From a virus (Duplodnaviria > Caudoviricetes): a stretch of DNA of 64,000 bases. The position numbers and the translations under genes were made by a program. The notes under the pieces are model-generated. The model worked only from the letters and a program-made list of their open reading frames with translations. It searched no databases and had not been told where the DNA came from. Positions 24,269 to 35,376 of the stretch are shown here, in pieces. Each line of letters starts with the position of its first letter. The first letter of the stretch is position 1. The DNA lies in IMG/VR virus record IMGVR_UViG_3300028533_000484, positions 64,001 to 128,000 of that record, one strand, 5' to 3'.

Positions 24269-26029
24269 TTAAACATTGAAGATCTCTTGCAATCTTTTAT
24301 ATACATCTCCTTTTACAGATTCTGACACTGAGTCCTTATCGGAATCTTCAGTATTGCTTTCTTCATCATCACTTTCTTCATCCGATTCTTCATCGTCGTT
24401 TTCTTCACCTGATTCTGTAGCTTCCTGATCTTCAGCATCTTTTTCTTTATCTGTTTTTTCAGCTTCTTGATCCTCAATATCTTTGTCATCTGGATCAACA
24501 GGATCGATACCAAAATCAAAATCAGTTAAAAGCTCTTTTAATGATTTTGCATCCTTACTTAAGTCTGTACCAGCCTCATTGATTAATAGTTCCATTTCGA
24601 TATCCGTATATGATGCACCTTTTTTATCCTTCTTTTTAGGATCAATATCTACTACTTTACCTACAGAAGCTGCAGATTTACCGCCTGCATACTGCATACC
24701 AGTAAACATGCTTGAGCTAACTTTGTTATCACCTTTTTCAGTAGACCTATTAAGAACACTACCTACAGCATTACCAACTGCTGTAAGTTTAGCTTTTTTT
24801 GCAGCACCATAAACTTTAGCAAGATTCCTTTGTAAAGTTGTTAAATCTTTTAAAGCTTTTGTATCCACGTTACCTTTAATTACATCGAAAACAGCTTCTT
24901 CCCAAGTCTTACCGAGATCTGTAAGAGCCTCAAAATCAGATCTTGAAAAGTAATTATGGTAAAGAGCTAAAAGATTTTTTACAGCAGTTTGATTTTTAAT
25001 AGTATCGTAATACTGCTCTACTCGAGGTTTAACGCTTTTATTTTTCCTATCCTTTGTAACCATCTTAATTTGATTAAGAATAATTTTTTCAATCTTTTTA
25101 GCATCTTCTAGAGTATTATCTTCAATAATATCTTTACCTAAATCGACCTCTTCTGCAGCCAAAATTTGTGGAAAGTTGTTGTCTTTGATACCTTGTTTAG
25201 CAGTGCTAGTCAAGTAGGCAACTTCAGCTAACTCAACAGAGTTAATTAACTTTGCAAAATCTGAATTACCACTAACAGCTACATATGCATACGTATCCCC
25301 ATATTTTTTCTTTATTTCTTCACTAAAAACTTTAATAGAAGCCCAAGCATAGCTTGGTTGTACTTGATTATCTATGTAAGGAATAGTTACAGCCACTTTC
25401 ATAGGTACTTTTTTACCGTTTTCATTTGACTGTTTGTATAGACCTCTAACATTTTCAATATTTTCTACAGCTTTTTGAAAAAGTTGAAAACCTTTAACAG
25501 AGACTGGACACGTTACACTAATAACAGCTAGATTTACCTTTGGTTTACTGTTACTTTCAGGTGCTTTTGTAGCTTGTTGAGCTTTTAAGTCTTCAGAATT
25601 CTGAGGAATCTCAGTATCAGATTCATATAAAATATATCCTGTAGTTTCCGCATAATCTTCGTTTAATCTTTTTCCAGCAAGATGCACTTCTTCTTTTTTC
25701 TGTTCTAAAGAAATCTTATCGGATTCACCATATGTATTTACTATCTTAAACTGCTGACAATCAGGTTTAACTTTTATCCAACCTTCATCTTGATTCAGTT
25801 CTAGAATTCTAAAGTCATCTTCATATTCATAAACATTTGTTGGAGTAAACATGTTCTGAATATCTTCAGAATCAATTCTGAATTTTTCAGGTACATACAA
25901 CGAGTTGAAGTGAAGCTTAAAAACTACATCTCCATTGTCGTCAAAATAATATGTAATCTTTGCAGGATCTTCTAAACAACATCTGTTTTGAACCTTTCTA
26001 ACAATTTTAACTAAGTCTTTCTTCTTCAT
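24269..26029 (-). CDS. hypothetical protein with acidic C-terminus, probable head-associated
   Basis: 586-aa ORF in portal operon. Confidence 0.7.
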   Translation of the reverse strand: MKKKDLVKIVRKVQNRCCLEDPAKITYYFDDNGDVVFKLHFNSLYVPEKFRIDSEDIQNMFTPTNVYEYEDDFRILELNQDEGWIKVKPDCQQFKIVNTYGESDKISLEQKKEEVHLAGKRLNEDYAETTGYILYESDTEIPQNSEDLKAQQATKAPESNSKPKVNLAVISVTCPVSVKGFQLFQKAVENIENVRGLYKQSNENGKKVPMKVAVTIPYIDNQVQPSYAWASIKVFSEEIKKKYGDTYAYVAVSGNSDFAKLINSVELAEVAYLTSTAKQGIKDNNFPQILAAEEVDLGKDIIEDNTLEDAKKIEKIILNQIKMVTKDRKNKSVKPRVEQYYDTIKNQTAVKNLLALYHNYFSRSDFEALTDLGKTWEEAVFDVIKGNVDTKALKDLTTLQRNLAKVYGAAKKAKLTAVGNAVGSVLNRSTEKGDNKVSSSMFTGMQYAGGKSAASVGKVVDIDPKKKDKKGASYTDIEMELLINEAGTDLSKDAKSLKELLTDFDFGIDPVDPDDKDIEDQEAEKTDKEKDAEDQEATESGEENDDEESDEESDDEESNTEDSDKDSVSESVKGDVYKRLQEIFNV

Positions 26030-28357: not shown

Positions 28358-28429
28358 GCATCTATAGCTTAATGGATAAAGCTTCTACCTCCTAAGTAGA
28401 GGATGCAGGTTCGATTCCTACTAGGTGCT
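28358..28429 (+). tRNA. tRNA-Arg(CCT)
   Basis: Cloverleaf; TCTAC-CTCCTAA-GTAGA. Confidence 0.9.
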
Positions 28430-28530
28430 AAAGGTTGGCAGTCAAACCTTTAAGACTCCATTTTTTCTTCTGGAAATATTTTGATTTATTTTCAGAAGAA
28501 AATTAAACTTATAACAAGTGAGGTACAGAA

Positions 28531-28692
28531 TTGGAAAGATTGGAAAGAATTGTAGATTGGCTTTTCGATACACATGATAAGGTTTTGTTTGTTGAAGATA
28601 TTAGTGGTTTTGGAGCTCTATTTCTTTTTGGAACTATGATTTTTGTTGCTGTGTTGTGTTGCAGCAAAAAGCTCAGAAGCAAGTTCTTTTAG
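28531..28692 (+). CDS. small membrane protein (53 aa, not in ORF track)
   Basis: GAGGT RBS, TTG start, hydrophobic segment. Confidence 0.5.
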   Translation: MERLERIVDWLFDTHDKVLFVEDISGFGALFLFGTMIFVAVLCCSKKLRSKFF

Positions 28693-28750
28693 GTGAATTT
28701 TTCAGATTGCACTAACTATATTACAAGCATAAATTGAAGGAGTAGATATC

Positions 28751-28861
28751 ATGACAAAGACATTTGTAACATCTAATAACATGACAAGTTCTTATCAATG
28801 CTGTGATACTATCCAATATTCATATTGTTCGTCAATCTATTTTAGAGGTGACAACAGTTGA
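28751..28861 (+). CDS. leader peptide 1 (36 aa) MTKTFVTSNNMTSSYQCCDTIQYSYCSSIYFRGDNS
   Basis: Promoter motif 28695-28722, GAAGGAG RBS, stop overlaps antiterminator arm. Confidence 0.75.
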   Translation: MTKTFVTSNNMTSSYQCCDTIQYSYCSSIYFRGDNS

Positions 28862-28923
28862 CCTTGTGCAAATAAAAAATGTTTGAAGAGTTGCACAGGG
28901 TTCCTAGAAATAGGAACTTTTTT
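28860..28923 (+). promoter_or_regulatory. attenuator 1: antiterminator (28860-28871/28891-28902) competing with terminator (28897-28923)
   Basis: GACCTTGTGCAA pairs TTGCACAGGGTT; AGGGTTCCTA-GAAA-TAGGAACTTT-TTT. Confidence 0.75.
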
Positions 28924-28940
28924 ATTCTTCAAACAAGTTT

Positions 28941-29021
28941 GGGTCAGTCGAGCAATTGGTTGCTCAGCGGACTGTAAATCCGTGGCCTATGGCATTGGGG
29001 GTTCGAATCCCTCCTGGCCCA
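28941..29021 (+). tRNA. tRNA-Tyr(GTA)
   Basis: Cloverleaf with variable arm; GCGGA-CTGTAAA-TCCGT. Confidence 0.92.
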
Positions 29022-29116
29022 ATATCACATTAAATCAACCAGTTTGTGAAAAGAGTTAATTTTTTTAACTATAATTAAATTATTAGCACTAATTAATTAA
29101 AGAAGGAGAAAAGATT

Positions 29117-29260
29117 ATGAAAAATTTTGTAACAAAACATTCGAACATAATTACAAAACAGATGTGTCAATCTGCTCTCCATACACTTTGCAATATTTTT
29201 GCTGACTCTGATTTTCAAACTAATGGGAAAGTGAAATGCGAAGGAGACTTCAAGTCTTGA
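29117..29260 (+). CDS. leader peptide 2 (47 aa) MKNFVTKHSNIITKQMCQSALHTLCNIFADSDFQTNGKVKCEGDFKS
   Basis: Promoter motif 29048-29075, GAAGGAG RBS, last codons and stop form antiterminator arm. Confidence 0.75.
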   Translation: MKNFVTKHSNIITKQMCQSALHTLCNIFADSDFQTNGKVKCEGDFKS

Positions 29261-29321
29261 GATAATTAATAATTTAGTTATTTACAAGGCTTGAATCGAA
29301 AAGGTTCAAGCCTTTTATTTT
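29249..29321 (+). promoter_or_regulatory. attenuator 2: antiterminator (29249-29295) competing with terminator (29286-29321)
   Basis: TTCAAGTCTTG pairs CAAGGCTTGAA; AAGGCTTGAATC-GAAAA-GGTTCAAGCCTT-TTATTTT. Confidence 0.8.
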
Positions 29322-29325
29322 GCTT

Positions 29326-29398
29326 AGGATGTTAGTACACCGGTTTAGTATTTTAGTCTGATAAACTAAAGAAAGAAGTTCAACTCTTCTACATCCTA
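29326..29398 (+). tRNA. tRNA-Ile(GAT)
   Basis: AGGATGT/ACATCCT acceptor; TTAGT-CTGATAA-ACTAA. Confidence 0.85.
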
Positions 29399-29402
29399 TA
29401 TA

Positions 29403-29629
29403 GTTAAACAAAAGCGTCGATTAAAACTGGTTCGAGTAATTGAGGTAACGTTCAGTAAATGAAAGAACAAAGATAATAACGGACTGAGGTAGAAACATTG
29501 TCAATCTTGGGTGTCCTGCCCGTCAGAAGAGTAATACTCTTCTTCAAGAATAAGGTGACGGATTGATGGTGTTGAAGGTTGGCTGGAGACGGCAGCGATA
29601 AATCCAGTTGAGTTTGACTTATTTTTAAC
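29403..29629 (+). ncRNA. candidate structured ncRNA (~225 nt)
   Basis: Ends pair (AACTGG/CCAGTT, GTTAAA/TTTAAC); inner CCGTCA/TGACGG and GAAGAG/CTCTTC. Confidence 0.45.
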
Positions 29630-29696
29630 ATTTTTTATGAAACAGCAATTAGCTTTTCAACTATAATATATATGTTAAAAATATTAAATTATTTAT

Positions 29697-29770
29697 AGTT
29701 CCATAGAACAACAGGTCCAGTTCACGGCCCTTTCAAGGCTGAGATCCGAGTTCAAGTCTCGGTGGAACTA
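29697..29770 (+). tRNA. tRNA-Glu(TTC)
   Basis: CGGCC-CTTTCAA-GGCTG; own promoter motif at 29639-29667. Confidence 0.9.
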
Positions 29771-29970
29771 AAGCTTATGTTCCTAACGGTTCGACTCCGT
29801 ATGAAAATCTTGAACTGTATAAGTGCGGTATAAGCCCGATGAGATGTCAAGATATAAACGGCATAGGAAAGGAAGCATCTGACTTAAGGTTTCAGGATAC
29901 AGTAGTAAACCTAGCGAAGTAGCGAAGGCCAAGTGAAAAGCGAACTCTTGCAAGAATCCCTTATAATGGG

Positions 29971-30051
29971 TGAAAGTTATAGTATAATGGAAATACAACA
30001 GCCGAGGTTATCTGGGCTGGAGATTGAAGGTTCGAGTCCTTCTGACTTTCA
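29971..30051 (+). ncRNA. tRNA-like RNA with aberrant anticodon arm
   Basis: Acceptor, D and T arms intact; CAGCC-GAGGTTATCTG-GGCTG (11-nt loop). Confidence 0.7.
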
Positions 30052-30056
30052 TATTT

Positions 30057-30130
30057 GCATCAGTAGCTCAGTTGGTTAGAGCGCCTGCCTTCCAAGCAGG
30101 ATGTCGAGGGTTCGAGCCCCTTCTGGTGCT
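30057..30130 (+). tRNA. tRNA-Gly(TCC)
   Basis: CCTGC-CTTCCAA-GCAGG. Confidence 0.95.
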
Positions 30131-30132
30131 CT

Positions 30133-30298
30133 AGGTGCAGCAATGCCGTGGATAGCACGTTACTAGGACTAATCTAATTGTACAAAGGAATTAGCCAGAG
30201 GATATGGTAACATACCTCGTTCTACGACTAGGTTGTTAAGGATGTTATACCTGACGTGAGACAGCCATAAAGGTTTCGTTTAGAAGATTGCTGCACCT
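30133..30298 (+). ncRNA. candidate structured ncRNA (166 nt)
   Basis: Perfect 12-bp closing stem AGGTGCAGCAAT/ATTGCTGCACCT with internal hairpins. Confidence 0.55.
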
Positions 30299-30373
30299 TT
30301 AAGCAGGTTGAAACGAATAGAAACTGAATCGAAAGATTCTAATGTAGGAGTAAGCACAAGAAGCTTATTGCAT

Positions 30374-30446
30374 GGGATATTGGTAAAATGGTGCATACGC
30401 CTGACTGTCACTCAGGAGAGCGCGAGTTCAATTCTCGCATATCCCG
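30374..30446 (+). tRNA. tRNA-Asp(GTC)
   Basis: CCTGA-CTGTCAC-TCAGG. Confidence 0.9.
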
Positions 30447-30455
30447 TTTTTTCTT

Positions 30456-30551
30456 GGACTGGTCGTATAGAGGTCAATTACAGGAGGAATGCGGTCCATT
30501 GGACCAAAGCCTCCTGCCATAGCTACGTAGGTTCGAATCCTACCCAGTCCG
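30456..30551 (+). ncRNA. tRNA-like RNA with hairpin inserted in the anticodon loop
   Basis: GGACTGG/CCAGTCC acceptor, perfect T arm; GGAGG-AATGC-GGTCC-ATT-GGACC-AAAG-CCTCC. Confidence 0.7.
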
Positions 30552-30560
30552 TAATGCATT

Positions 30561-30634
30561 GGAGTGTTAGCTCAGTTGGTAGTAGCAAGCGGCTGTTAAC
30601 CGCTAGGTCGCAGGTTCGAGTCCTGCACACTCCG
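30561..30634 (+). tRNA. tRNA-Asn(GTT)
   Basis: AGCGG-CTGTTAA-CCGCT. Confidence 0.95.
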
Positions 30635-30642
30635 AAAACCTT

Positions 30643-30710
30643 AACATCTTACCTTTATGGTCCTAGGGCTGTAATGTTAGGTGGGGACCACCGGAGATGT
30701 TCCTAACATT
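30643..30710 (+). ncRNA. compact pseudoknotted element
   Basis: AACATCTT/GAGATGTT, TGGTCCT/GGGACCA, loop AATGTTAGG pairs CCTAACATT. Confidence 0.55.
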
Positions 30711-30717
30711 GTTTTAT

Positions 30718-30790
30718 GCTACCTTAGCAAAATGGCTAATGCGCGTGATTTGTAATCTCGAGATTGTGGGTTCGAGTCCTACAGGTAGCT
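30718..30790 (+). tRNA. tRNA-Thr(TGT)
   Basis: CGTGA-TTTGTAA-TCTCG (one stem mismatch). Confidence 0.88.
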
Positions 30791-30792
30791 TT

Positions 30793-30865
30793 CGCGGATG
30801 GGTGAAACGGAATTCATGCCAGCCTCATAAGCTGAAGATAGCAGGTTCGACTCCTGTATCCGCAA
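30793..30865 (+). tRNA. tRNA-Met(CAT), initiator-like (C1:A72)
   Basis: CGCGGAT/ATCCGCA; CCAGC-CTCATAA-GCTGA. Confidence 0.85.
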
Positions 30866-30867
30866 TA

Positions 30868-30995
30868 AAAACATTTAGCGGTTTGTGAAAGTGGAAGGCA
30901 TTCCTTTGGACGACATGAAAGTCATAGCAAATCATAATCGAAACTGGTAAGCCTTAGCGCTGAGTACACTTACCGTTGAGTAGGCTAAATGTTTT
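30868..30995 (+). ncRNA. candidate structured ncRNA (128 nt)
   Basis: Perfect 12-bp closing stem AAAACATTTAGC/GCTAAATGTTTT; inner GGTAAG/CTTACC. Confidence 0.5.
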
Positions 30996-30999
30996 ACAT

Positions 31000-31071
31000 C
31001 GCCTGTTACCCAAGCAGTAAGGGAGCGGTCTGCAAAACCGTAATTCATAGGTGCAAATCCTATACAGGTGT
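31000..31071 (+). tRNA. tRNA-Cys(GCA)
   Basis: GCGGT-CTGCAAA-ACCGT, U73. Confidence 0.9.
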
Positions 31072-31075
31072 CTAA

Positions 31076-31231
31076 GGAATGGTAGCTTAGTCAAAAATAG
31101 TTTAGAAACTGCGCTGGCCGGTCGGCGGTTATAAATACTGAATTATTCAGTGTTAGGAAGCCTAAATGAAATATGCAGGAAAAGCGCTAACGAAACGTTA
31201 GAGAGTGTAAGTTCGAATCTTACCTATTCCT
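31076..31231 (+). ncRNA. tRNA-like RNA with ~90-nt D-loop insertion and collapsed anticodon loop
   Basis: GGAATGG/CTATTCC, GCTT/AAGC, CTAACG-AAA-CGTTAG, GTAAG-TTCGAAT-CTTAC. Confidence 0.65.
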
Positions 31232-31298
31232 TGAGGTAGATATAGGTGTTCGGTGCAAGTCCGGATTTAAGATAGTCAAGCCTTAAGCTACCATAAAA

Positions 31299-31505
31299 GT
31301 GGAGACTTCTGTGACTATACAGAAAACTATAGCAACATCTCAGCCAAGTGTTAATAATTGCTCTTTAGATAGTAAAATCGAAAGAGCTTATATGAAAGGC
31401 GCGCTTGCAATGTATGAGTTTTTGCAAGAAGAAAAATTAGTGCCTATTATAACAACTGGGTGTCAAGAAATGTTATGGAAAAAGTTTAAGGAAAAGAATA
31501 GCTAA
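31299..31505 (+). CDS. small hypothetical protein
   Basis: ORF between RNA genes; start uncertain. Confidence 0.5.
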   Translation: METSVTIQKTIATSQPSVNNCSLDSKIERAYMKGALAMYEFLQEEKLVPIITTGCQEMLWKKFKEKNS

Positions 31506-31566
31506 TTCGCATGCTTTCTTGATATATTGGATTACAGGTCTATGAAAATGACTTGTTTTTTTACAT

Positions 31567-31638
31567 TCCTCCATAGTGTAGTTGGTAGCACTTGAGAATT
31601 TGGGTCTCACAGGCTGGGTTCGAGTCCTAGCGGAGGAA
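31567..31638 (+). tRNA. tRNA-Gln(TTG)
   Basis: TGAGA-ATTTGGG-TCTCA. Confidence 0.88.
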
Positions 31639-31640
31639 AT

Positions 31641-31701
31641 AAAGCAAAGGTTGTTCCTATTAAAAGTTATTTTATTGGAAAAATTGTGTACAACCCGCTT
31701 T
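31641..31701 (+). repeat. GTTGTTCCTATT...TACAAC motif copy 1
   Basis: Conserved with 34987-35062 and 35394-35470. Confidence 0.7.
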
Positions 31702-31707
31702 AATTTT

Positions 31708-31780
31708 GGGCTGTTCGTATATCGGCTTATTACACGGGCTTTGCAAGCCTGATAGAGGGGTTCAACTCCCCTACGGTCCA
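31708..31780 (+). tRNA. tRNA-Ala(TGC)
   Basis: G3:U70 pair; CGGGC-TTTGCAA-GCCTG. Confidence 0.92.
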
Positions 31781-31810
31781 CTAAAAAAGTCTTCTGTTAG
31801 AAGATTTTAT

Positions 31811-31892
31811 GGGTTTGTGTTGGAATTGGTATACATCGGGGTCTTAGAAGCCTCGGCCGAAAGGATTGAGAGTTCGAGTCTCTCCAAGCCCA
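31811..31892 (+). tRNA. tRNA-Leu(TAG)
   Basis: GGGGT-CTTAGAA-GCCTC, variable arm. Confidence 0.9.
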
Positions 31893-31896
31893 TCAT

Positions 31897-31968
31897 CCAA
31901 ACTTGGTGTCAGCGGTAGCACAGCGGACTGAAGATCCGTTAGCTGGGGTTCAAATCCCTGAGTTTGGA
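31897..31968 (+). tRNA. tRNA-Phe(GAA)
   Basis: GCGGA-CTGAAGA-TCCGT. Confidence 0.85.
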
Positions 31969-31975
31969 CTAATAT

Positions 31976-32048
31976 GTTGAAGAAGTTCATACGGTTGAAC
32001 GCTGCCCTCATAAGGCAGATGTAGTAGGTCCGAATCCTGCCTTCAGCA
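31976..32048 (+). tRNA. tRNA-Met(CAT), elongator (or Ile2 if lysidine-modified)
   Basis: CTGCC-CTCATAA-GGCAG. Confidence 0.85.
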
Positions 32049-32050
32049 AT

Positions 32051-32123
32051 GTACCCATAGTGTTAGTGGTTAGCACGGAAGATTGTGGATCTTCAAGGTC
32101 GGGTTCAAATCCCGATGGGCACC
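32051..32123 (+). tRNA. tRNA-His(GTG)
   Basis: GAAGA-TTGTGGA-TCTTC, C73. Confidence 0.9.
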
Positions 32124-32130
32124 TTTATTT

Positions 32131-32166
32131 GGAAAGTTGGCACAGCGGCGACTGCAACGGTCTTGA
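32131..32166 (+). pseudogene. 5' half of a tRNA-Ser(TGA), truncated just after the anticodon
   Basis: GGAAAGT-TG-GCAC-AGCGGCGAC-TGC-A-ACGGT-CT-TGA then unrelated T-rich sequence. Confidence 0.75.
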
Positions 32167-32187
32167 TTCTTTTTTACCAATTAATGT

Positions 32188-32928
32188 ATGGGAAGAATTA
32201 AAGATACAGAAAAGATTTTACAAAATGCTAAAGAAGGTAATTGTATTTTCTGCAGCAAAGTTTGCAAAAATCAAAATAGCTTTAGGCAGCATCAAGTACG
32301 TTGTAAGTACAATCCAAATAGAAGAGCTATATGGTTGCACAACGATGTTTGGAGAGCTTCTGTTAAGAATAGAAAAGTAGCTGTACAGGTAAAAGATCAG
32401 TTTATTTGTAAATTTTGTAAAAAATGTTGGCTTACTACTGTAAGCGGTTATAAAAATCATGAACTGCATTGCAGAGAGAATCCTTGCAGAAAAGCAGGAT
32501 CCTTTACAGGCAGAACTGTTTCGGAAGAAACTAAAAAGAAAATCTCTGCGACAGGTAAGAGTCGAAAATCCTTAGGAGGATATCGATTTGGAAGTGGTAG
32601 AGGTAAAAAAGGAACATATAAGGGTTATTATTGTGATTCATCTTGGGAACTCGCTTATGTGATTTTCAATCTTGAACATAATATAAAGTTTGAAAGAAAC
32701 GAAGAACTTTTTCCTTATGAGTTTAATGATGAACAGCATAAATATAAGCCTGATTTTATTGAAGGCGACATTTATGTTGAAGTAAAAGGGTATTATACTG
32801 AACAAGTCAATGCAAAGACAAAAGCCTTTCCTTATAAACTTAAGTTCCTTGATAAAGAGACAATTAAGCCGTATATTGACTATGTTGTATCAAAATATGG
32901 TCAAGATTATATACGACTTTATGAATAA
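32188..32928 (+). CDS. free-standing homing-type endonuclease (two Cys/His fingers, NUMOD3-like motif, PD-(D/E)XK domain)
   Basis: CIFC..HQVRC, CKFC..HELHC, VSEETKKKIS, DSSWE...YKPDF...YVEVKG. Confidence 0.8.
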   Translation: MGRIKDTEKILQNAKEGNCIFCSKVCKNQNSFRQHQVRCKYNPNRRAIWLHNDVWRASVKNRKVAVQVKDQFICKFCKKCWLTTVSGYKNHELHCRENPCRKAGSFTGRTVSEETKKKISATGKSRKSLGGYRFGSGRGKKGTYKGYYCDSSWELAYVIFNLEHNIKFERNEELFPYEFNDEQHKYKPDFIEGDIYVEVKGYYTEQVNAKTKAFPYKLKFLDKETIKPYIDYVVSKYGQDYIRLYE

Positions 32929-33019
32929 GGAAGTGTTGAGCAGTTGGTAGCTCTCCTGACTTGAAATCAGGCGATTGCCTTGGAAAGGCGTCATGCAGGT
33001 TCGAATCCTGTCGCTTCCG
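32929..33019 (+). tRNA. tRNA-Ser(TGA)
   Basis: CCTGA-CTTGAAA-TCAGG, long variable arm, G73. Confidence 0.92.
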
Positions 33020-33053
33020 TAAATCTTTGTTGTAATTAAATATAAAGATTTTA

Positions 33054-33240
33054 ATAGAACTTGCAACACTTAGAGGCATTAAAGTTTTGAACTCGTCACT
33101 CAAGACTGCTGCTCAAAGAGATGATGAAGCTCGTGTCCCACGGCAAGTCTATAATGGTGATTCACAGTAGCCACTCAACTTCATCAGAGAAAAGAATCCC
33201 GCCGAGTAGGACGTTCGATACAGATTCTGAGTACTGTGAA
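33054..33240 (+). ncRNA. two adjacent stem-closed candidate ncRNA domains
   Basis: ATAGAACTTGC/GCAAGTCTAT and TTCACAGTA/TACTGTGAA. Confidence 0.4.
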
Positions 33241-33244
33241 ACAA

Positions 33245-33317
33245 TGGACTCGTGCTCGATGGTTTTGAGCAACGGTCTTATAAGCCGTCACACAGAGTTC
33301 AATTCTCTGGGGTCCTA
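33245..33317 (+). tRNA. tRNA-Ile(TAT)
   Basis: ACGGT-CTTATAA-GCCGT; U1:U72 mismatch. Confidence 0.8.
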
Positions 33318-33429
33318 AAAAACGAGTTAAGGAATATAATATGAAGAAGAAACAGAGGCCTTAACTTTCTGTTCAAGTCCATTGGAATAGAAAGTGGCCA
33401 GATTAAATGGAAACACAATTTATTTTAAT

Positions 33430-33506
33430 GGACCGTTAGCTCAGTCTGGGTTAAGAGCAATGCCCTTTTAAGGCGTGGGTCGTGAGTTCGAATCTCACAC
33501 GGTTCA
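33430..33506 (+). tRNA. tRNA-Lys(TTT) copy 1
   Basis: ATGCC-CTTTTAA-GGCGT. Confidence 0.93.
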
Positions 33507-33511
33507 ACCTT

Positions 33512-33586
33512 CTACCCGTGACGCAGTCTGGTTAGCGTACAAAACTTTTAATTTTGGGGTCGTGAGTTCGAATCTCACCGGGTAGA
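33512..33586 (+). tRNA. tRNA-Lys(TTT) copy 2
   Basis: CAAAA-CTTTTAA-TTTTG. Confidence 0.9.
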
Positions 33587-33590
33587 CTAC

Positions 33591-33662
33591 CCGCTTATAA
33601 CTCAACGGTAGAGTGGCGAACTCTTAATTCGCAGGTTCTCAGTTCAAATCTGAGTAGGCGGA
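33591..33662 (+). tRNA. tRNA-Lys(CTT)
   Basis: GCGAA-CTCTTAA-TTCGC. Confidence 0.93.
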
Positions 33663-33676
33663 CTTTTATAAAAAAT

Positions 33677-33749
33677 ATGAGTATGGTATAATGGATAGTG
33701 CCTTTGGCTACGAACCAAATGAATGGGAGTTCGATTCTCTCTACTCACA
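33677..33749 (+). tRNA. tRNA-Arg(ACG)
   Basis: TTTGG-CTACGAA-CCAAA. Confidence 0.85.
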
Positions 33750-33755
33750 CAATTT

Positions 33756-33827
33756 CGTTCTCTAACTCAATGGTGGAGTGCCGCTTTTACACAGCGGAGG
33801 TTGTAGGTTCAAGTCCTACGGGAACGA
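33756..33827 (+). tRNA. tRNA-Val(TAC)
   Basis: CCGCT-TTTACAC-AGCGG. Confidence 0.92.
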
Positions 33828-33834
33828 CTTTAGG

Positions 33835-34239
33835 TGTCAAAGTAACTTAAAAGGGTTTGACAAAATCGATACGACCAGAGCACTGCTGCAGCGTCCCTCC
33901 TGGTTTTGTGTAGGCCTAAAACTATATTTTTGATATAAAGGTGTGCTCTGACCTAGCTTAGATTAGGTGTGAAGGGATAATCTAGCGACAACAAAATGTT
34001 GTAAGAACTAAAGAGAATTTATGCAGTAGTTACTAAAAGTATGACGGTTAAGTGGATGTTCCGCTTCCGTAGAACTGCCAAGGCACGAATCTACAACTCA
34101 AGTAGTTGTATTTATCAGTAAAGGTGATTAAAAGAAAAGCATAATTTTAATCTGATTTTAATATCAAACCAAGACCTTGCAGGCGGGTGTGTGCATTACG
34201 AGCACCCTAAGCGGCTTCACCGCATCGGGCATTTTTTTT
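33835..34239 (+). ncRNA. ORF-free structured region, one or more candidate ncRNAs
   Basis: TGTCAAA/TTTGACA, CAGAGCAC/GTGCTCTG, TACAACT/AGTTGTA, GGGTG/CACCC hairpins, ends in T-run. Confidence 0.4.
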
Positions 34240-34429
34240 GAAAACTATAATGAAATAAAAACCTGTAAGGTAATAGATGTGACAGTCTAGGAAGTAATCA
34301 GGTGTTTTCTAGCTTTCGTAAACTAGATATTGGAGTGCTACGTAAGTTATAGATATGAATTTATGTATGTGGAAGCTTCCTAAATTCTTTATTTATAACA
34401 TGCCAAGAAGTCGAAACAGTAGCAATTTT

Positions 34430-34503
34430 GGTCTATTGGAGAAGTTGGAGTACTCGCCTGACTGTCACTCAGGAAATCACAGGTTCAAGTCCCGTATAGA
34501 CCG
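34430..34503 (+). tRNA. tRNA-Asp(GTC) copy 2
   Basis: CCTGA-CTGTCAC-TCAGG. Confidence 0.9.
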
Positions 34504-34531
34504 TAATCAAAAGCTTGTACGAGGTATAAAA

Positions 34532-34699
34532 ATGAAAGTTTTGAAAAAAATATTTCTTTTCATTAAAAAAGCTTTTTTAATTTTAACCGAAGAAAACCCA
34601 AAAGACAAGAATTGTTTAAATTGTGGTTGGAGAAATTCTAAAGATAGATATGCTTGCAAATTGTGTAGTCCAACAGATTTATCTGAATGGATTCCGTAA
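34532..34699 (+). CDS. 55-aa Cys-containing protein (start moved from 34355)
   Basis: GAGGT RBS before ATG 34532; CLNC...CKLC; the longer frame overlaps tRNA-Asp. Confidence 0.6.
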   Translation: MKVLKKIFLFIKKAFLILTEENPKDKNCLNCGWRNSKDRYACKLCSPTDLSEWIP

Positions 34700-34731
34700 G
34701 CGAAAACTATATTAATACCAATAATATAAAT

Positions 34732-34804
34732 GACTGTGTAGCTCAACTGGATGAGCACAAACCTTCTAAGTTTGCGGATGCAGGTTCGAATCCTGTCACA
34801 GTTA
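34732..34804 (+). tRNA. tRNA-Arg(TCT)
   Basis: CAAAC-CTTCTAA-GTTTG. Confidence 0.92.
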
Positions 34805-34806
34805 AA

Positions 34807-34980
34807 TAAAGAATGTATACCTCTATTGCTACGAGTCTATGGAATTCCTCGTTGAAATAAAAAGGTAGTACTTGGGGGAACATTGAGAGTTCGATGATGG
34901 TATAATTCTCTCTGAACTGATGAGGAAGGATTCAGTTGAGTTGACTAGCAGATAGCAATCTAGTCTCAATTCCTTTTACA
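34807..34980 (+). ncRNA. duplicated ~175-nt structured RNA, copy A
   Basis: Near-identical to 35939-36111, with a compensatory change. Confidence 0.65.
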
Positions 34981-34986
34981 AGAGTG

Positions 34987-35062
34987 AAGTGCATAGGTTG
35001 TTCCTATTTAAAAGCTACTTAGGGCTCGTAAGGGCTCTGCCATTTTTATACAACTCGCACTT
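34987..35062 (+). repeat. GTTGTTCCTATT...TACAAC motif copy 2
   Basis: Closed by AAGTGC/GCACTT. Confidence 0.7.
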
Positions 35063-35072
35063 TTTATTTTAC

Positions 35073-35143
35073 TCCTCCGTAGTGTAATGGTAGCACGCGA
35101 GATTCTGGTTCTTAAAGTGAGGGTTCGAATCCTTCCGGAGGAA
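35073..35143 (+). tRNA. tRNA-Gln(CTG)
   Basis: GAGA-TTCTGGT-TCTT; TCCTCCG/CGGAGGA. Confidence 0.9.
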
Positions 35144-35276
35144 AGCACATTTGCAGAGGCCTACTAGCAAAATTGAGGAACGGCAATTCCAATAGATTAG
35201 CGAAAAATGGTTGTAGGGACAAGCTCATACCGTTGCCGCGAATGAGTGAGAGTGAGTTCAACTCCCGCTAGGTGCT
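35144..35276 (+). ncRNA. candidate RNA ending in a T-arm/acceptor-like module
   Basis: AGCAC/GTGCT ends, GTTCAACTC T-loop, CGGCAA/TTGCCG potential pseudoknot. Confidence 0.4.
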
Positions 35277-35286
35277 CTTTTTATAT

Positions 35287-35367
35287 CGGTCTGTGGTGTA
35301 ATTGGCAGCCACGCATGACTTAGGATCATGTGTCTTTGACGTGAGAGTTCGAGTCTCTCCAGGCCGA
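35287..35367 (+). tRNA. tRNA-Leu(TAG) copy 2
   Basis: CATGA-CTTAGGA-TCATG, variable arm. Confidence 0.9.
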
Positions 35368-35376
35368 CTACTTAAA

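What the first reader, a model, noticed from the sequence alone, without database searches (positions are those of the whole stretch)
31076..31231. tRNA mimic 3: tRNA scaffold carrying a ~90-nt structured insert in the D loop
Seen: acceptor GGAATGG/CTATTCC, D stem GCTT/AAGC separated by about 100 nt (including hairpin AATACTGAAT/ATTCAGTGTT), anticodon arm closed to a 3-nt loop, and a canonical T arm. It looks like a natural tRNA-scaffolded cargo RNA that gains processing and stability from the tRNA fold. With mimics 1 and 2 it suggests a family of anticodon-less tRNA-like RNAs.
Basis: partly seen in the sequence, partly recalled or inferred. Interest (0 to 1): 0.7.

Follow-up and report, generated by a model that had tools for sequence, protein, structure and literature searches.

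The report
Non-decoding tRNA-shaped RNA, jumbo phage
A giant phage's tRNA gene cluster holds a conserved 156-base gene for an RNA that keeps the whole tRNA body but has a sealed anticodon arm and an 86-base folded domain in its D loop, so it is a selected tRNA look-alike that cannot read codons and whose job is unknown.

Summary
Window 31076-31231 (+), 3 nt after tRNA-Cys in a 27-tRNA array of a jumbo-phage fragment, folds as a complete tRNA body. An 86-nt Y-shaped domain sits between D-loop positions 15 and 17/18, and the anticodon stem is capped by only 4-5 nt.

I found seven more distinct homologues (84-93% identity) in metagenome contigs. On the 8-sequence alignment, 99.7% of cells pair and 11 of 44 pairs show double compensatory changes (0/500 shuffles reach this). 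Thirty-four G-U cells place the RNA on the + strand. The cap of the anticodon stem varies in sequence and length, so there is no anticodon. The junction strands of the insert, the D stem and the anticodon stem never vary.

It matches no Rfam family and ARAGORN does not call it. It is not an intron-bearing tRNA, a pseudogene, a tmRNA or a YrlA.

The closest known things are the tRNA-like stable RNAs of unknown role in the T4 (RNAC) and T5 (RNA1, RNA2) tRNA clusters. They resemble it in kind only; my covariance model finds no specific homology.

This scan has already noted anticodon-less tRNA-shaped RNAs in other phages, but not this sequence family.

Expression, processing and function were not tested.

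The parts
31076..31082 (+). Acceptor stem, 5' strand (nt 1-7)
   Evidence: Pairs with 31224-31230. Pair 2-71 is G-C, G-U or A-U, and pair 6-67 is G-U or G-C, across homologues.
31083..31090 (+). U8, A9, D stem 5' strand GCUU (nt 10-13), then A14 and G15
   Evidence: Invariant in all 8 sequences. These are the canonical tRNA core positions (established numbering).
31091..31176 (+). 86-nt insert in the D loop (nt 16-101). It has an irregular stem (16-30 with 87-101), a three-way junction, and hairpins P-a and P-b.
   Evidence: RNAalifold consensus. Helix 25-30/87-92 shows a U-A to A-U swap at 27-90.
31112..31127 (+). Hairpin P-a (nt 37-52): 5-bp stem with conserved loop GYYGGU
   Evidence: All four inner pairs vary (GC, GU, UA, AU, CG) and three of them change on both sides. 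100% of cells pair.
31134..31154 (+).
   Evidence: The helix varies in length (about 5-6 to 9 bp). Four pairs change on both sides and every cell pairs.
31106..31111 (+). Junction strand J1, AAACUG (nt 31-36). J2, GUUAUA, is at 31128-31133. J3, AGGAAGC, is at 31155-31161.
   Evidence: J1 and J2 are invariant in 8 of 8 sequences. J3 has one variable base. These are the candidate binding core (inference).
31177..31186 (+). D-loop 3' part AGGAA (G103 G104 = G18 G19; A106 = A21), D stem 3' strand AAGC, and G26
   Evidence: Invariant except A102 (A or G). With the insert removed the D arm reads GCUU-AGAGGAA-AAGC. G111 and A127 become A and U together in L008, as the 26-44 pair would.
31187..31201 (+). 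Anticodon-position arm: invariant 5-bp stem CUAAC/GUUAG capped by 4-5 variable nt
   Evidence: Caps are GAAAC, GGGC, AGGU, AGAU and AGGG. There is no 7-nt loop and no conserved triplet.
31202..31223 (+). Variable loop AGAGU and T arm GUAAG-UUCGAAU-CUUAC
   Evidence: The T stem has 2 pairs changed on both sides and 2 changed on one side. The loop keeps UUCRA.
31224..31231 (+). Acceptor 3' strand plus discriminator (U here, G in L014 and L015). No encoded CCA.
31000..31072 (+). tRNA-Cys(GCA), 3 nt upstream on the same strand
   Evidence: ARAGORN and Rfam. It defines the co-transcribed context (inferred).

Best explanation
This is a gene for a non-decoding, tRNA-derived structured RNA.

Shown:
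- It is a conserved RNA on the + strand.
- It has a complete class-I tRNA body: a 7-bp acceptor, U8, A14, R15, G18 G19, A21, a 4-bp D stem, the 26-44 pair, a 5-nt variable loop and a canonical T arm.
- An 86-nt Y-shaped domain is inserted in the variable part of the D loop.
- The anticodon stem is capped by a variable 4-5-nt loop.

Inferred:
- It is transcribed with the tRNA array.
- RNase P cuts it at G31076. It is trimmed after the discriminator (31231), and CCA is added afterwards.
- It folds into the tRNA L shape with an intact elbow.
- The insert points outward from D-loop positions 16-17, which are solvent-exposed in tRNA structures.
- Without an anticodon loop, and without any identity mark for an anticodon-independent synthetase, it does not decode and is probably not charged.

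The invariant junction strands, internal loop, D stem and anticodon stem contrast with freely covarying outer helices. I therefore think the mature RNA of about 156-159 nt works as a stable binding module for a specific protein or RNA partner, displayed on a tRNA chassis. The partner and the effect are unknown.
For: - Location: 3 nt after tRNA-Cys, inside a 27-tRNA array all on the + strand. No + strand terminator-like site lies between 29314 and 35020.
- Homologues: seven further distinct sequences in contigs of related phages, 84-93% identical, scoring 172-184 bits with model R1.
- Covariation: 99.7% of cells pair, 11 pairs change on both sides, and 0/500 shuffles reach any measure. Slid controls pair at only 34-43%.
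- Strand: 34 of the 341 cells are G-U pairs. These would be A-C mismatches on the other strand (pair counts).
- The flanking genes differ between contigs while the element persists, so it behaves as its own module. The upstream neighbour is tRNA-Cys in some contigs and other tRNA-like genes in others. A tRNA-Ile(UAU) follows it in L008 and L011.
- With the insert removed, the body is tRNA-sized with a normal D arm.
- The loop on the anticodon stem varies in length and sequence.
- Precedent: T4 RNAC/RNAD and T5 RNA1/RNA2 are annotated stable RNAs inside phage tRNA clusters; T5 RNA1 and RNA2 are annotated as tRNA-like. The roles of the T4 pair are still unknown (PMC3014915).
Against: - There is no expression, end-mapping or CCA evidence.
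- The D stem and anticodon stem never vary, so their pairing is untested by covariation.
- The three-base-pair stem closing the insert (16-18/99-101) competes with a pseudoknot, 34-37/100-103. The pseudoknot fits the alignment equally well and would use the G18 equivalent.
- The single-sequence fold is not unusually stable (z = -1.76).
- No partner was identified, so the binding-module step is inference only.
- The eight sequences come from one phage clade, and several changes may be single events.
Confidence: 0.78

Rival explanations
1. It is a cis-acting leader or regulatory structure for the small conserved gene downstream (64 aa, 31311-31505), not a free RNA.
For: A homologue of this protein lies downstream of the element in every contig that holds both.
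Against: The distance varies from about 80 to over 500 nt. A tRNA-Ile(UAU) and other modules lie between them in L008, L011, L014 and L015. The element is closed by a covarying acceptor stem like its tRNA neighbours. The 9-nt complementarity between nt 6-14 and 31284-31292 is not kept in L007.
Confidence: 0.06
2. It is a real tRNA interrupted by an intron, like the 'enigmatic introns' reported in Lak megaphage tRNAs. The insert would be removed to give a decoding tRNA.
For: Long phage tRNA genes have been read as intron-bearing (PMC6784885). ARAGORN at an 80% threshold with introns allowed gives a weak tRNA-His(atg) call with a 65-nt intron.
Against: Removing the D-loop insert restores a normal D arm but leaves a 4-5-nt cap of variable sequence on the anticodon stem. 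No single excision gives a 7-nt anticodon loop. At 86 nt the insert is too short for a group I intron (established knowledge). The insert's own helices covary, as expected for a retained structure.
Confidence: 0.03
3. It is a chargeable tRNA-like RNA used outside decoding: a mini-tmRNA, or an amino-acid donor for a transferase.
For: The acceptor stem, T arm and elbow positions needed by CCA-adding enzyme and EF-Tu-like binders are intact. A short frame, GCA-AAA-AUA-GUA-UAG, can be read in most copies.
Against: There is no G3-U70 pair (3-70 is A-U in all copies) and no long variable arm. The discriminator switches between U and G. The longer frame through P-a changes as paired RNA, not as a conserved peptide. 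ARAGORN finds no tmRNA in default mode. Rfam shows only a 9.4-bit tmRNA fragment, and it lies elsewhere.
Confidence: 0.05
4. It is a decaying tRNA pseudogene disrupted by an insertion.
For: It is not detected as a tRNA and has no anticodon.
Against: Both the body and the insert keep pairing through compensatory changes in eight lineages down to 84% identity. The core positions are invariant.
Confidence: 0.02
5. It is a Y-RNA-like (YrlA-type) partner of a Ro/TROVE protein in an RNA repair or decay particle.
For: Some jumbo phages carry TROVE proteins that work with tRNA-like RNAs (PMC7824862).
Against: No RF02553 match falls on the element; the only weak matches lie on ordinary tRNAs. No TROVE or RtcB gene is in the 140-kb record, although that record is only about 35% complete. 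The architecture also differs: in YrlA the Ro-binding helix is formed by the RNA ends (established knowledge).
Confidence: 0.03

Closest known systems
Phage T4 species 1 RNA (RNAC, AF158101 70908-71046)
   Same: It is a stable RNA gene of about 140 nt inside the phage tRNA cluster. It has a canonical T arm (CCGGG-UUCGAAU-CCCGG), a long hairpin where the D arm would be, and a closed hairpin with a non-anticodon loop before the T arm. Its role is unknown (PMC3014915).
   Different: There is no detectable homology. R1 gives 13.8 bits, below ordinary tRNAs at 17-36 bits. In T4 RNAC the D arm appears to be replaced. Here a complete D arm and the G18 G19 positions are kept and the insert sits inside the D loop.
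Phage T5 RNA1 and RNA2 (AY543070; annotated 'tRNA-like stable RNA with unknown functions')
   Same: They are tRNA-like stable RNAs of 125-144 nt in a phage tRNA cluster, with acceptor, D and T arms and no normal anticodon arm.
   Different: Their extra structure lies in the anticodon/variable region, not the D loop. R1 scores are 15-19 bits, so there is no specific homology.
Canonical tRNA (Rfam RF00005)
   Same: It has the acceptor, D stem, T arm and variable loop, and the core positions U8, A9, A14, R15, G18 G19, A21, 26-44, and G53-C61 with UUCRA.
   Different: It has an 86-nt D-loop insert and a 4-5-nt cap instead of a 7-nt anticodon loop. RF00005 scores only 18.1 bits on the 3' part against a gathering score of 29. 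ARAGORN does not call it.
Engineered tRNA scaffold for recombinant RNA (PMC3753655)
   Same: The idea is the same: a foreign structured RNA carried inside a tRNA body. The paper describes a generic in vivo approach for expressing recombinant RNA in E. coli.
   Different: Here the element is natural, and the cargo sits in the D loop while the anticodon stem is sealed. That the engineered system carries its cargo in the anticodon stem, and that the tRNA fold is what gives processing and stability, is from my own knowledge. I saw only the abstract.
'Enigmatic' introns in Lak megaphage tRNAs (PMC6784885)
   Same: These are over-long tRNA-shaped genes in giant gut phages, with highly conserved inserts.
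   Different: Those were read as anticodon-bearing tRNAs with an intron. Here no excision restores an anticodon loop.

Membership tests
Canonical tRNA (RF00005) | 7-bp acceptor stem and a T arm with a UUCRA loop | tested here: met
   both are present and both covary.
Canonical tRNA (RF00005) | 7-nt anticodon loop presenting a conserved triplet | tested here: not met
   The cap is 4-5 nt and variable: GAAAC, GGGC, AGGU, AGAU, AGGG.
Canonical tRNA (RF00005) | Reaches the Rfam gathering score, or is called by ARAGORN | tested here: not met
   18.1 bits against 29, on the 3' part only. No match at gathering threshold. No ARAGORN call.
Intron-bearing tRNA | Removing one segment restores a complete decoding tRNA | tested here: not met
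   Removing nt 16-101 restores the D arm but not an anticodon loop.
tmRNA | G3-U70 alanine identity pair | tested here: not met
   Pair 3-70 is A-U in all 8 sequences.
tmRNA | Conserved tag reading frame; detection by ARAGORN or RF00023 | tested here: not met
   The frame through P-a changes as RNA pairs, not as a peptide. ARAGORN finds no tmRNA in default mode. Rfam gives no tmRNA match on the element.
YrlA / bacterial Y RNA (RF02553) | Match to the covariance model | tested here: not met
   No match on the element at E <= 10.
YrlA / bacterial Y RNA (RF02553) | A Ro/TROVE protein gene in the genome | tested here: inconclusive
   None in the 140-kb record, but the record is about 35% complete.
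Phage tRNA-cluster stable RNAs (T4 RNAC; T5 RNA1, RNA2) | Gene inside a phage tRNA cluster, same strand, with tRNA-like acceptor and T arm | tested here: met
Phage tRNA-cluster stable RNAs (T4 RNAC; T5 RNA1, RNA2) | Sequence and structure homology to the T4 or T5 RNAs | tested here: not met
   R1 scores them 13.8-19.4 bits, no better than ordinary tRNAs.
Phage tRNA-cluster stable RNAs (T4 RNAC; T5 RNA1, RNA2) | Accumulates as a discrete stable RNA | not testable with these tools

The most novel reading that the evidence does not exclude
The 86-nt insert is a specific aptamer-like binding core: a three-way junction with invariant joining strands. The phage displays it on a fully functional tRNA chassis. 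Together with the other anticodon-less tRNA-shaped RNAs in this phage, and those the scan noted in other phages, it would belong to a widespread, undescribed class. In that class, phages would use the tRNA fold for maturation and stability while the cargo sequesters or guides a host or phage factor, for example in a conflict over the tRNA or translation machinery.
Probability: 0.25. Interest if true: 0.8.

Novelty: new variant of a known kind. Interest (0 to 1): 0.55.

Why it matters
tRNA-like stable RNAs in phage tRNA clusters have long been annotated in T4 and T5. A 2010 review still called the roles of the T4 pair unknown (PMC3014915).

This element is a clean, covariation-supported example with an unusual design. 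Every core tRNA position is kept, the anticodon arm is sealed, and a conserved three-way-junction domain is placed in the exposed part of the D loop. That design separates what selection preserves as shape (acceptor stem, T arm, outer hairpins) from what it preserves as sequence (junctions, D stem, anticodon stem). It therefore points to where a partner would bind.

It gives a defined RNA for pull-down, probing and processing tests. It also gives a covariance model for finding further members, and so a way into the open question of what such phage RNAs do.

Tried and rejected
Searches that found nothing useful:
- Rfam at gathering and at relaxed thresholds gave no family on the element.
- BLAST of the region and of a neighbouring protein against 50,697 phage records gave no match.
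- Exact-pattern scans of viral contigs found nothing real. A metagenome scan gave one real homologue (L027) and nine chance 21-mer matches, L018-L026.
- A genome-contig scan gave two chance matches, in Vibrio and Saccharibacteria. R1 rejected both, so no host or prophage copy was found.
- The search for related loci with single proteins found no relatives.
- The more distant relatives L004 and L005 have no tRNA array at the syntenic place.
- The genome search could not reach the Logan contigs behind my loci.

Readings considered and rejected:
- The first AAGC (31158-31161) as the D-stem partner. It crosses the covarying helix 25-30/87-92, and its G-C pair is broken in L011 and L015. The second AAGC gives a nested, canonical D arm.
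- Pairing of nt 6-14 with 31284-31292. It is not conserved in L007, and that 3' strand closes its own module.
- A hammerhead-like core in the junction. By eye the junction strands do not fit the consensus, and Rfam agrees.
- The 29231-29323 hit from my T-arm scan is a terminator hairpin, not a tRNA-like gene.

Other:
- A fold of the neighbouring 64-aa protein gave only a helical hairpin at pLDDT 71. I did not take it to a fold search.

Full report
CONTEXT

The window is bases 64001-128000 of a 140-kb IMG/VR virus record judged about 35% complete, so it comes from a jumbo phage. The window encodes GroEL-like, topoisomerase II and thymidine kinase proteins. Positions 28358-35368 hold 27 tRNA genes, all on the + strand. 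The finding, 31076-31231, starts 3 nt after tRNA-Cys(GCA).

OBSERVATION

- A 7-bp acceptor: 31076-31082 with 31224-31230.
- GCUU (31085-31088) paired with an AAGC 93 nt away (31182-31185).
- The hairpin at 31134-31154.
- A closed arm, CUAACG-AAA-CGUUAG (31187-31201).
- A canonical T arm, GUAAG-UUCGAAU-CUUAC.

My own scan for a T arm followed by a matching 7-bp acceptor finds this element. It also finds three other uncalled candidates in the array, one of which is a terminator hairpin. The element is invisible to ARAGORN and to Rfam. Only a sub-threshold tRNA match of 18.1 bits covers its 3' part. The single-sequence fold is not remarkable (z = -1.76), so the case rests on comparison.

HOMOLOGUES

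Public phage genomes and IMG/VR gave nothing. Two neighbouring proteins led to relatives.
- The 586-aa protein at 24269-26029 has relatives at 49-95% identity. The contig of the 84% relative carries the element at 93% identity.
- The small ORF just downstream has 20 homologues at 60-94% identity. Its true start is GTG 31311 and it encodes 64 aa. The contigs of these homologues gave more copies.
- A pattern scan of metagenomes added one more copy. The other nine matches to that pattern were chance.

In all there are eight distinct full-length sequences at 84-93% identity. The neighbours differ between contigs. The upstream gene is tRNA-Cys in some contigs and other tRNA-like genes in others. 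A tRNA-Ile(UAU) follows the element in L008 and L011. So the element behaves as a gene of its own.

STRUCTURE

RNAalifold gives a nested fold. From 5' to 3' it runs:
- acceptor stem;
- U8 and A9;
- D stem GCUU/AAGC, using the second AAGC;
- an 86-nt insert;
- the sealed anticodon-position arm;
- a 5-nt variable loop;
- the T arm.

On this fold 99.7% of 341 cells are standard pairs and 11 of 44 pairs show changes on both sides. None of 500 shuffles reaches any of the five measures. Sliding the partners by 1-3 columns drops pairing to 34-43%.

Covariation is strong in five places:
- the acceptor, where pair 2-71 is G-C, G-U or A-U;
- the T stem;
- hairpin P-a, where all four inner pairs vary;
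- hairpin P-b, which varies from about 5-6 to 9 bp and has four doubly changed pairs;
- pair 27-90, where U-A swaps to A-U.

Thirty-four cells are G-U pairs, which places the RNA on the + strand.

The D stem and the stem CUAAC/GUUAG never vary, so their pairing is not tested by covariation. A pseudoknot, 34-37 with 100-103, fits the alignment as well as the short stem that closes the insert. The data cannot choose between them.

THE tRNA BODY IS COMPLETE

With nt 16-101 removed, the D arm reads GCUU-AGAGGAA-AAGC and the body is tRNA-sized. By standard tRNA numbering the following positions are present and invariant: U8, A9, A14, G15, G18 G19 (G103 G104), A21, the R15-Y48 positions, G53-C61 and the UUCRA T loop. 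Position 26 and position 44 are G and A in seven sequences. In L008 they change together to A and U, as the 26-44 pair would.

The insert therefore sits in the variable stretch of the D loop around positions 16-17. In known tRNA structures this stretch points to solvent (established knowledge), so the L shape and the elbow can be kept.

IT DOES NOT DECODE

The cap on the anticodon stem is GAAAC, GGGC, AGGU, AGAU or AGGG. It is too short and too variable to present an anticodon. The marks used by synthetases that ignore the anticodon are also absent. Pair 3-70 is A-U, there is no long variable arm, and the discriminator is U or G. No CCA is encoded.

WHAT SELECTION KEEPS

- The outer helices (acceptor, T stem, P-a, P-b) keep their pairing but not their sequence.
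- Several parts are invariant or nearly so: the junction strands AAACUG, GUUAUA and AGGAAGC; the AAAAUA/GAAAUA internal loop; the P-a loop GYYGGU; the D stem; and the anticodon stem.

This pattern is usual for an RNA whose core is a specific binding or tertiary site. From it I infer a partner-binding module. I found no partner.

RIVALS

- Intron-bearing tRNA, as proposed for Lak megaphages (PMC6784885): fails, because no excision restores an anticodon loop.
- Pseudogene: contradicted by the compensatory changes.
- tmRNA-like: no G3-U70 pair, no conserved tag frame, and no call by ARAGORN's default mode or by Rfam.
- YrlA-like: no model match, and no TROVE or RtcB gene in the fragment, although the record is incomplete.
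- Leader of the downstream small gene: unlikely, because tRNA genes and other modules intervene in several relatives.

COMPARISON WITH KNOWN RNAs

T4 RNAC (species 1 RNA) and T5 RNA1 and RNA2 are annotated stable RNAs inside the tRNA clusters of those phages. Their predicted folds show tRNA-like ends and T arms with non-decoding middles. The roles of the T4 RNAs are still called unknown (PMC3014915).

My covariance model scores them at 13.8-19.4 bits, no better than ordinary tRNAs at 17-39 bits. They are analogues in kind, not detectable relatives. The D-loop position of the insert, together with a sealed anticodon stem and a fully kept core, is a design I did not find in Rfam or in the papers searched.

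Earlier notes of this scan describe anticodon-less tRNA-shaped RNAs in at least eight other phage genomes, and further odd tRNA-like genes in this same genome. So the phenomenon is recurrent, but this sequence family was seen only here. It is single-copy in the record.

VERDICT

The element is a real, selected, non-decoding tRNA-derived RNA gene. It is a new family and a new architectural variant of the known but unexplained kind 'tRNA-like stable RNA of phage tRNA clusters'. Maturation by the tRNA pathway and a binding role for the insert are inferred, not shown.

Noticed in passing
window 31235-31292: A separate conserved module of about 58 nt lies right after the element. It is closed by GGUAG/CUACC, which becomes GAUAG/CUAUC in L008 (a compensatory change). 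It holds a T-arm-like hairpin, UUCGG-UGCAAGU-CCGGA, whose loop is UUCGAGU in L002 and L027. In L008 a tRNA-Ile(UAU) sits between the element and this module.
   Followed up: partly
window 30456-30551: 'Mimic 2' has a tRNA body with a 22-nt stretch in place of the anticodon loop. That stretch holds its own hairpin, GGUCC-AUU-GGACC. It is conserved in L002 and L008, with compensatory changes in the acceptor and the inner hairpin. ARAGORN calls the L008 copy a 97-nt tRNA-Arg(gcg).
   Followed up: partly
window 29973-30050: 'Mimic 1' has a tRNA body with an 11-nt anticodon loop. The L002 copy has compensatory changes in the D stem and the anticodon stem.
   Followed up: partly
window 31311-31505: A conserved 64-aa protein of unknown function. 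It starts at GTG with a GGAG Shine-Dalgarno sequence and has 20 homologues. It lies downstream of the element in every contig that holds both. It is predicted to be a helical hairpin at pLDDT 71 and has no Pfam family.
   Followed up: partly
window 32188-32928: A 246-aa ORF inside the tRNA array with Cys/His-rich repeats and a weak Phage_endo_I match. It is likely a free-standing homing endonuclease. The relative L002 carries DUF559 endonuclease genes at other places in its array.
   Followed up: no
window 30867-30999: The spacer between tRNA-Met and tRNA-Cys is closed by a long helix (AAACAUUUAGC with GCUAAAUGUUU) and has inner hairpins. It may be another structured RNA.
   Followed up: no
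L011:321-421; also L007:3146-3245, L015:156-256, L013:71-169: Relatives carry a further tRNA-shaped gene of about 100 nt. Its anticodon arm is a long closed hairpin (z = -3.4). This window has no such gene.
   Followed up: no
L004:5517-7668 and L005:5526-7635: More distant relatives (50-58% protein identity) have no tRNA genes beside the shared gene block where this phage has its array. They carry a different set of genes there, including flagellin-like and FlaA-like ones (FlaA in L005 only). FlaA is known to me as a spirochaete flagellar sheath protein. This may hint at the host or at a carried host gene.
   Followed up: no
L014:866-1114: The gene caller's 82-aa product for the small-protein homologue translates only with TAG read as Gln. 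This is probably an N-terminal over-extension, but it could point to a recoded relative.
   Followed up: no
G000:C1:12437-12622 (outside the window): A weak, sub-threshold match to the PolyA_pol / CCA-adding nucleotidyltransferase family in a 263-aa frame (14.6 bits).
   Followed up: no
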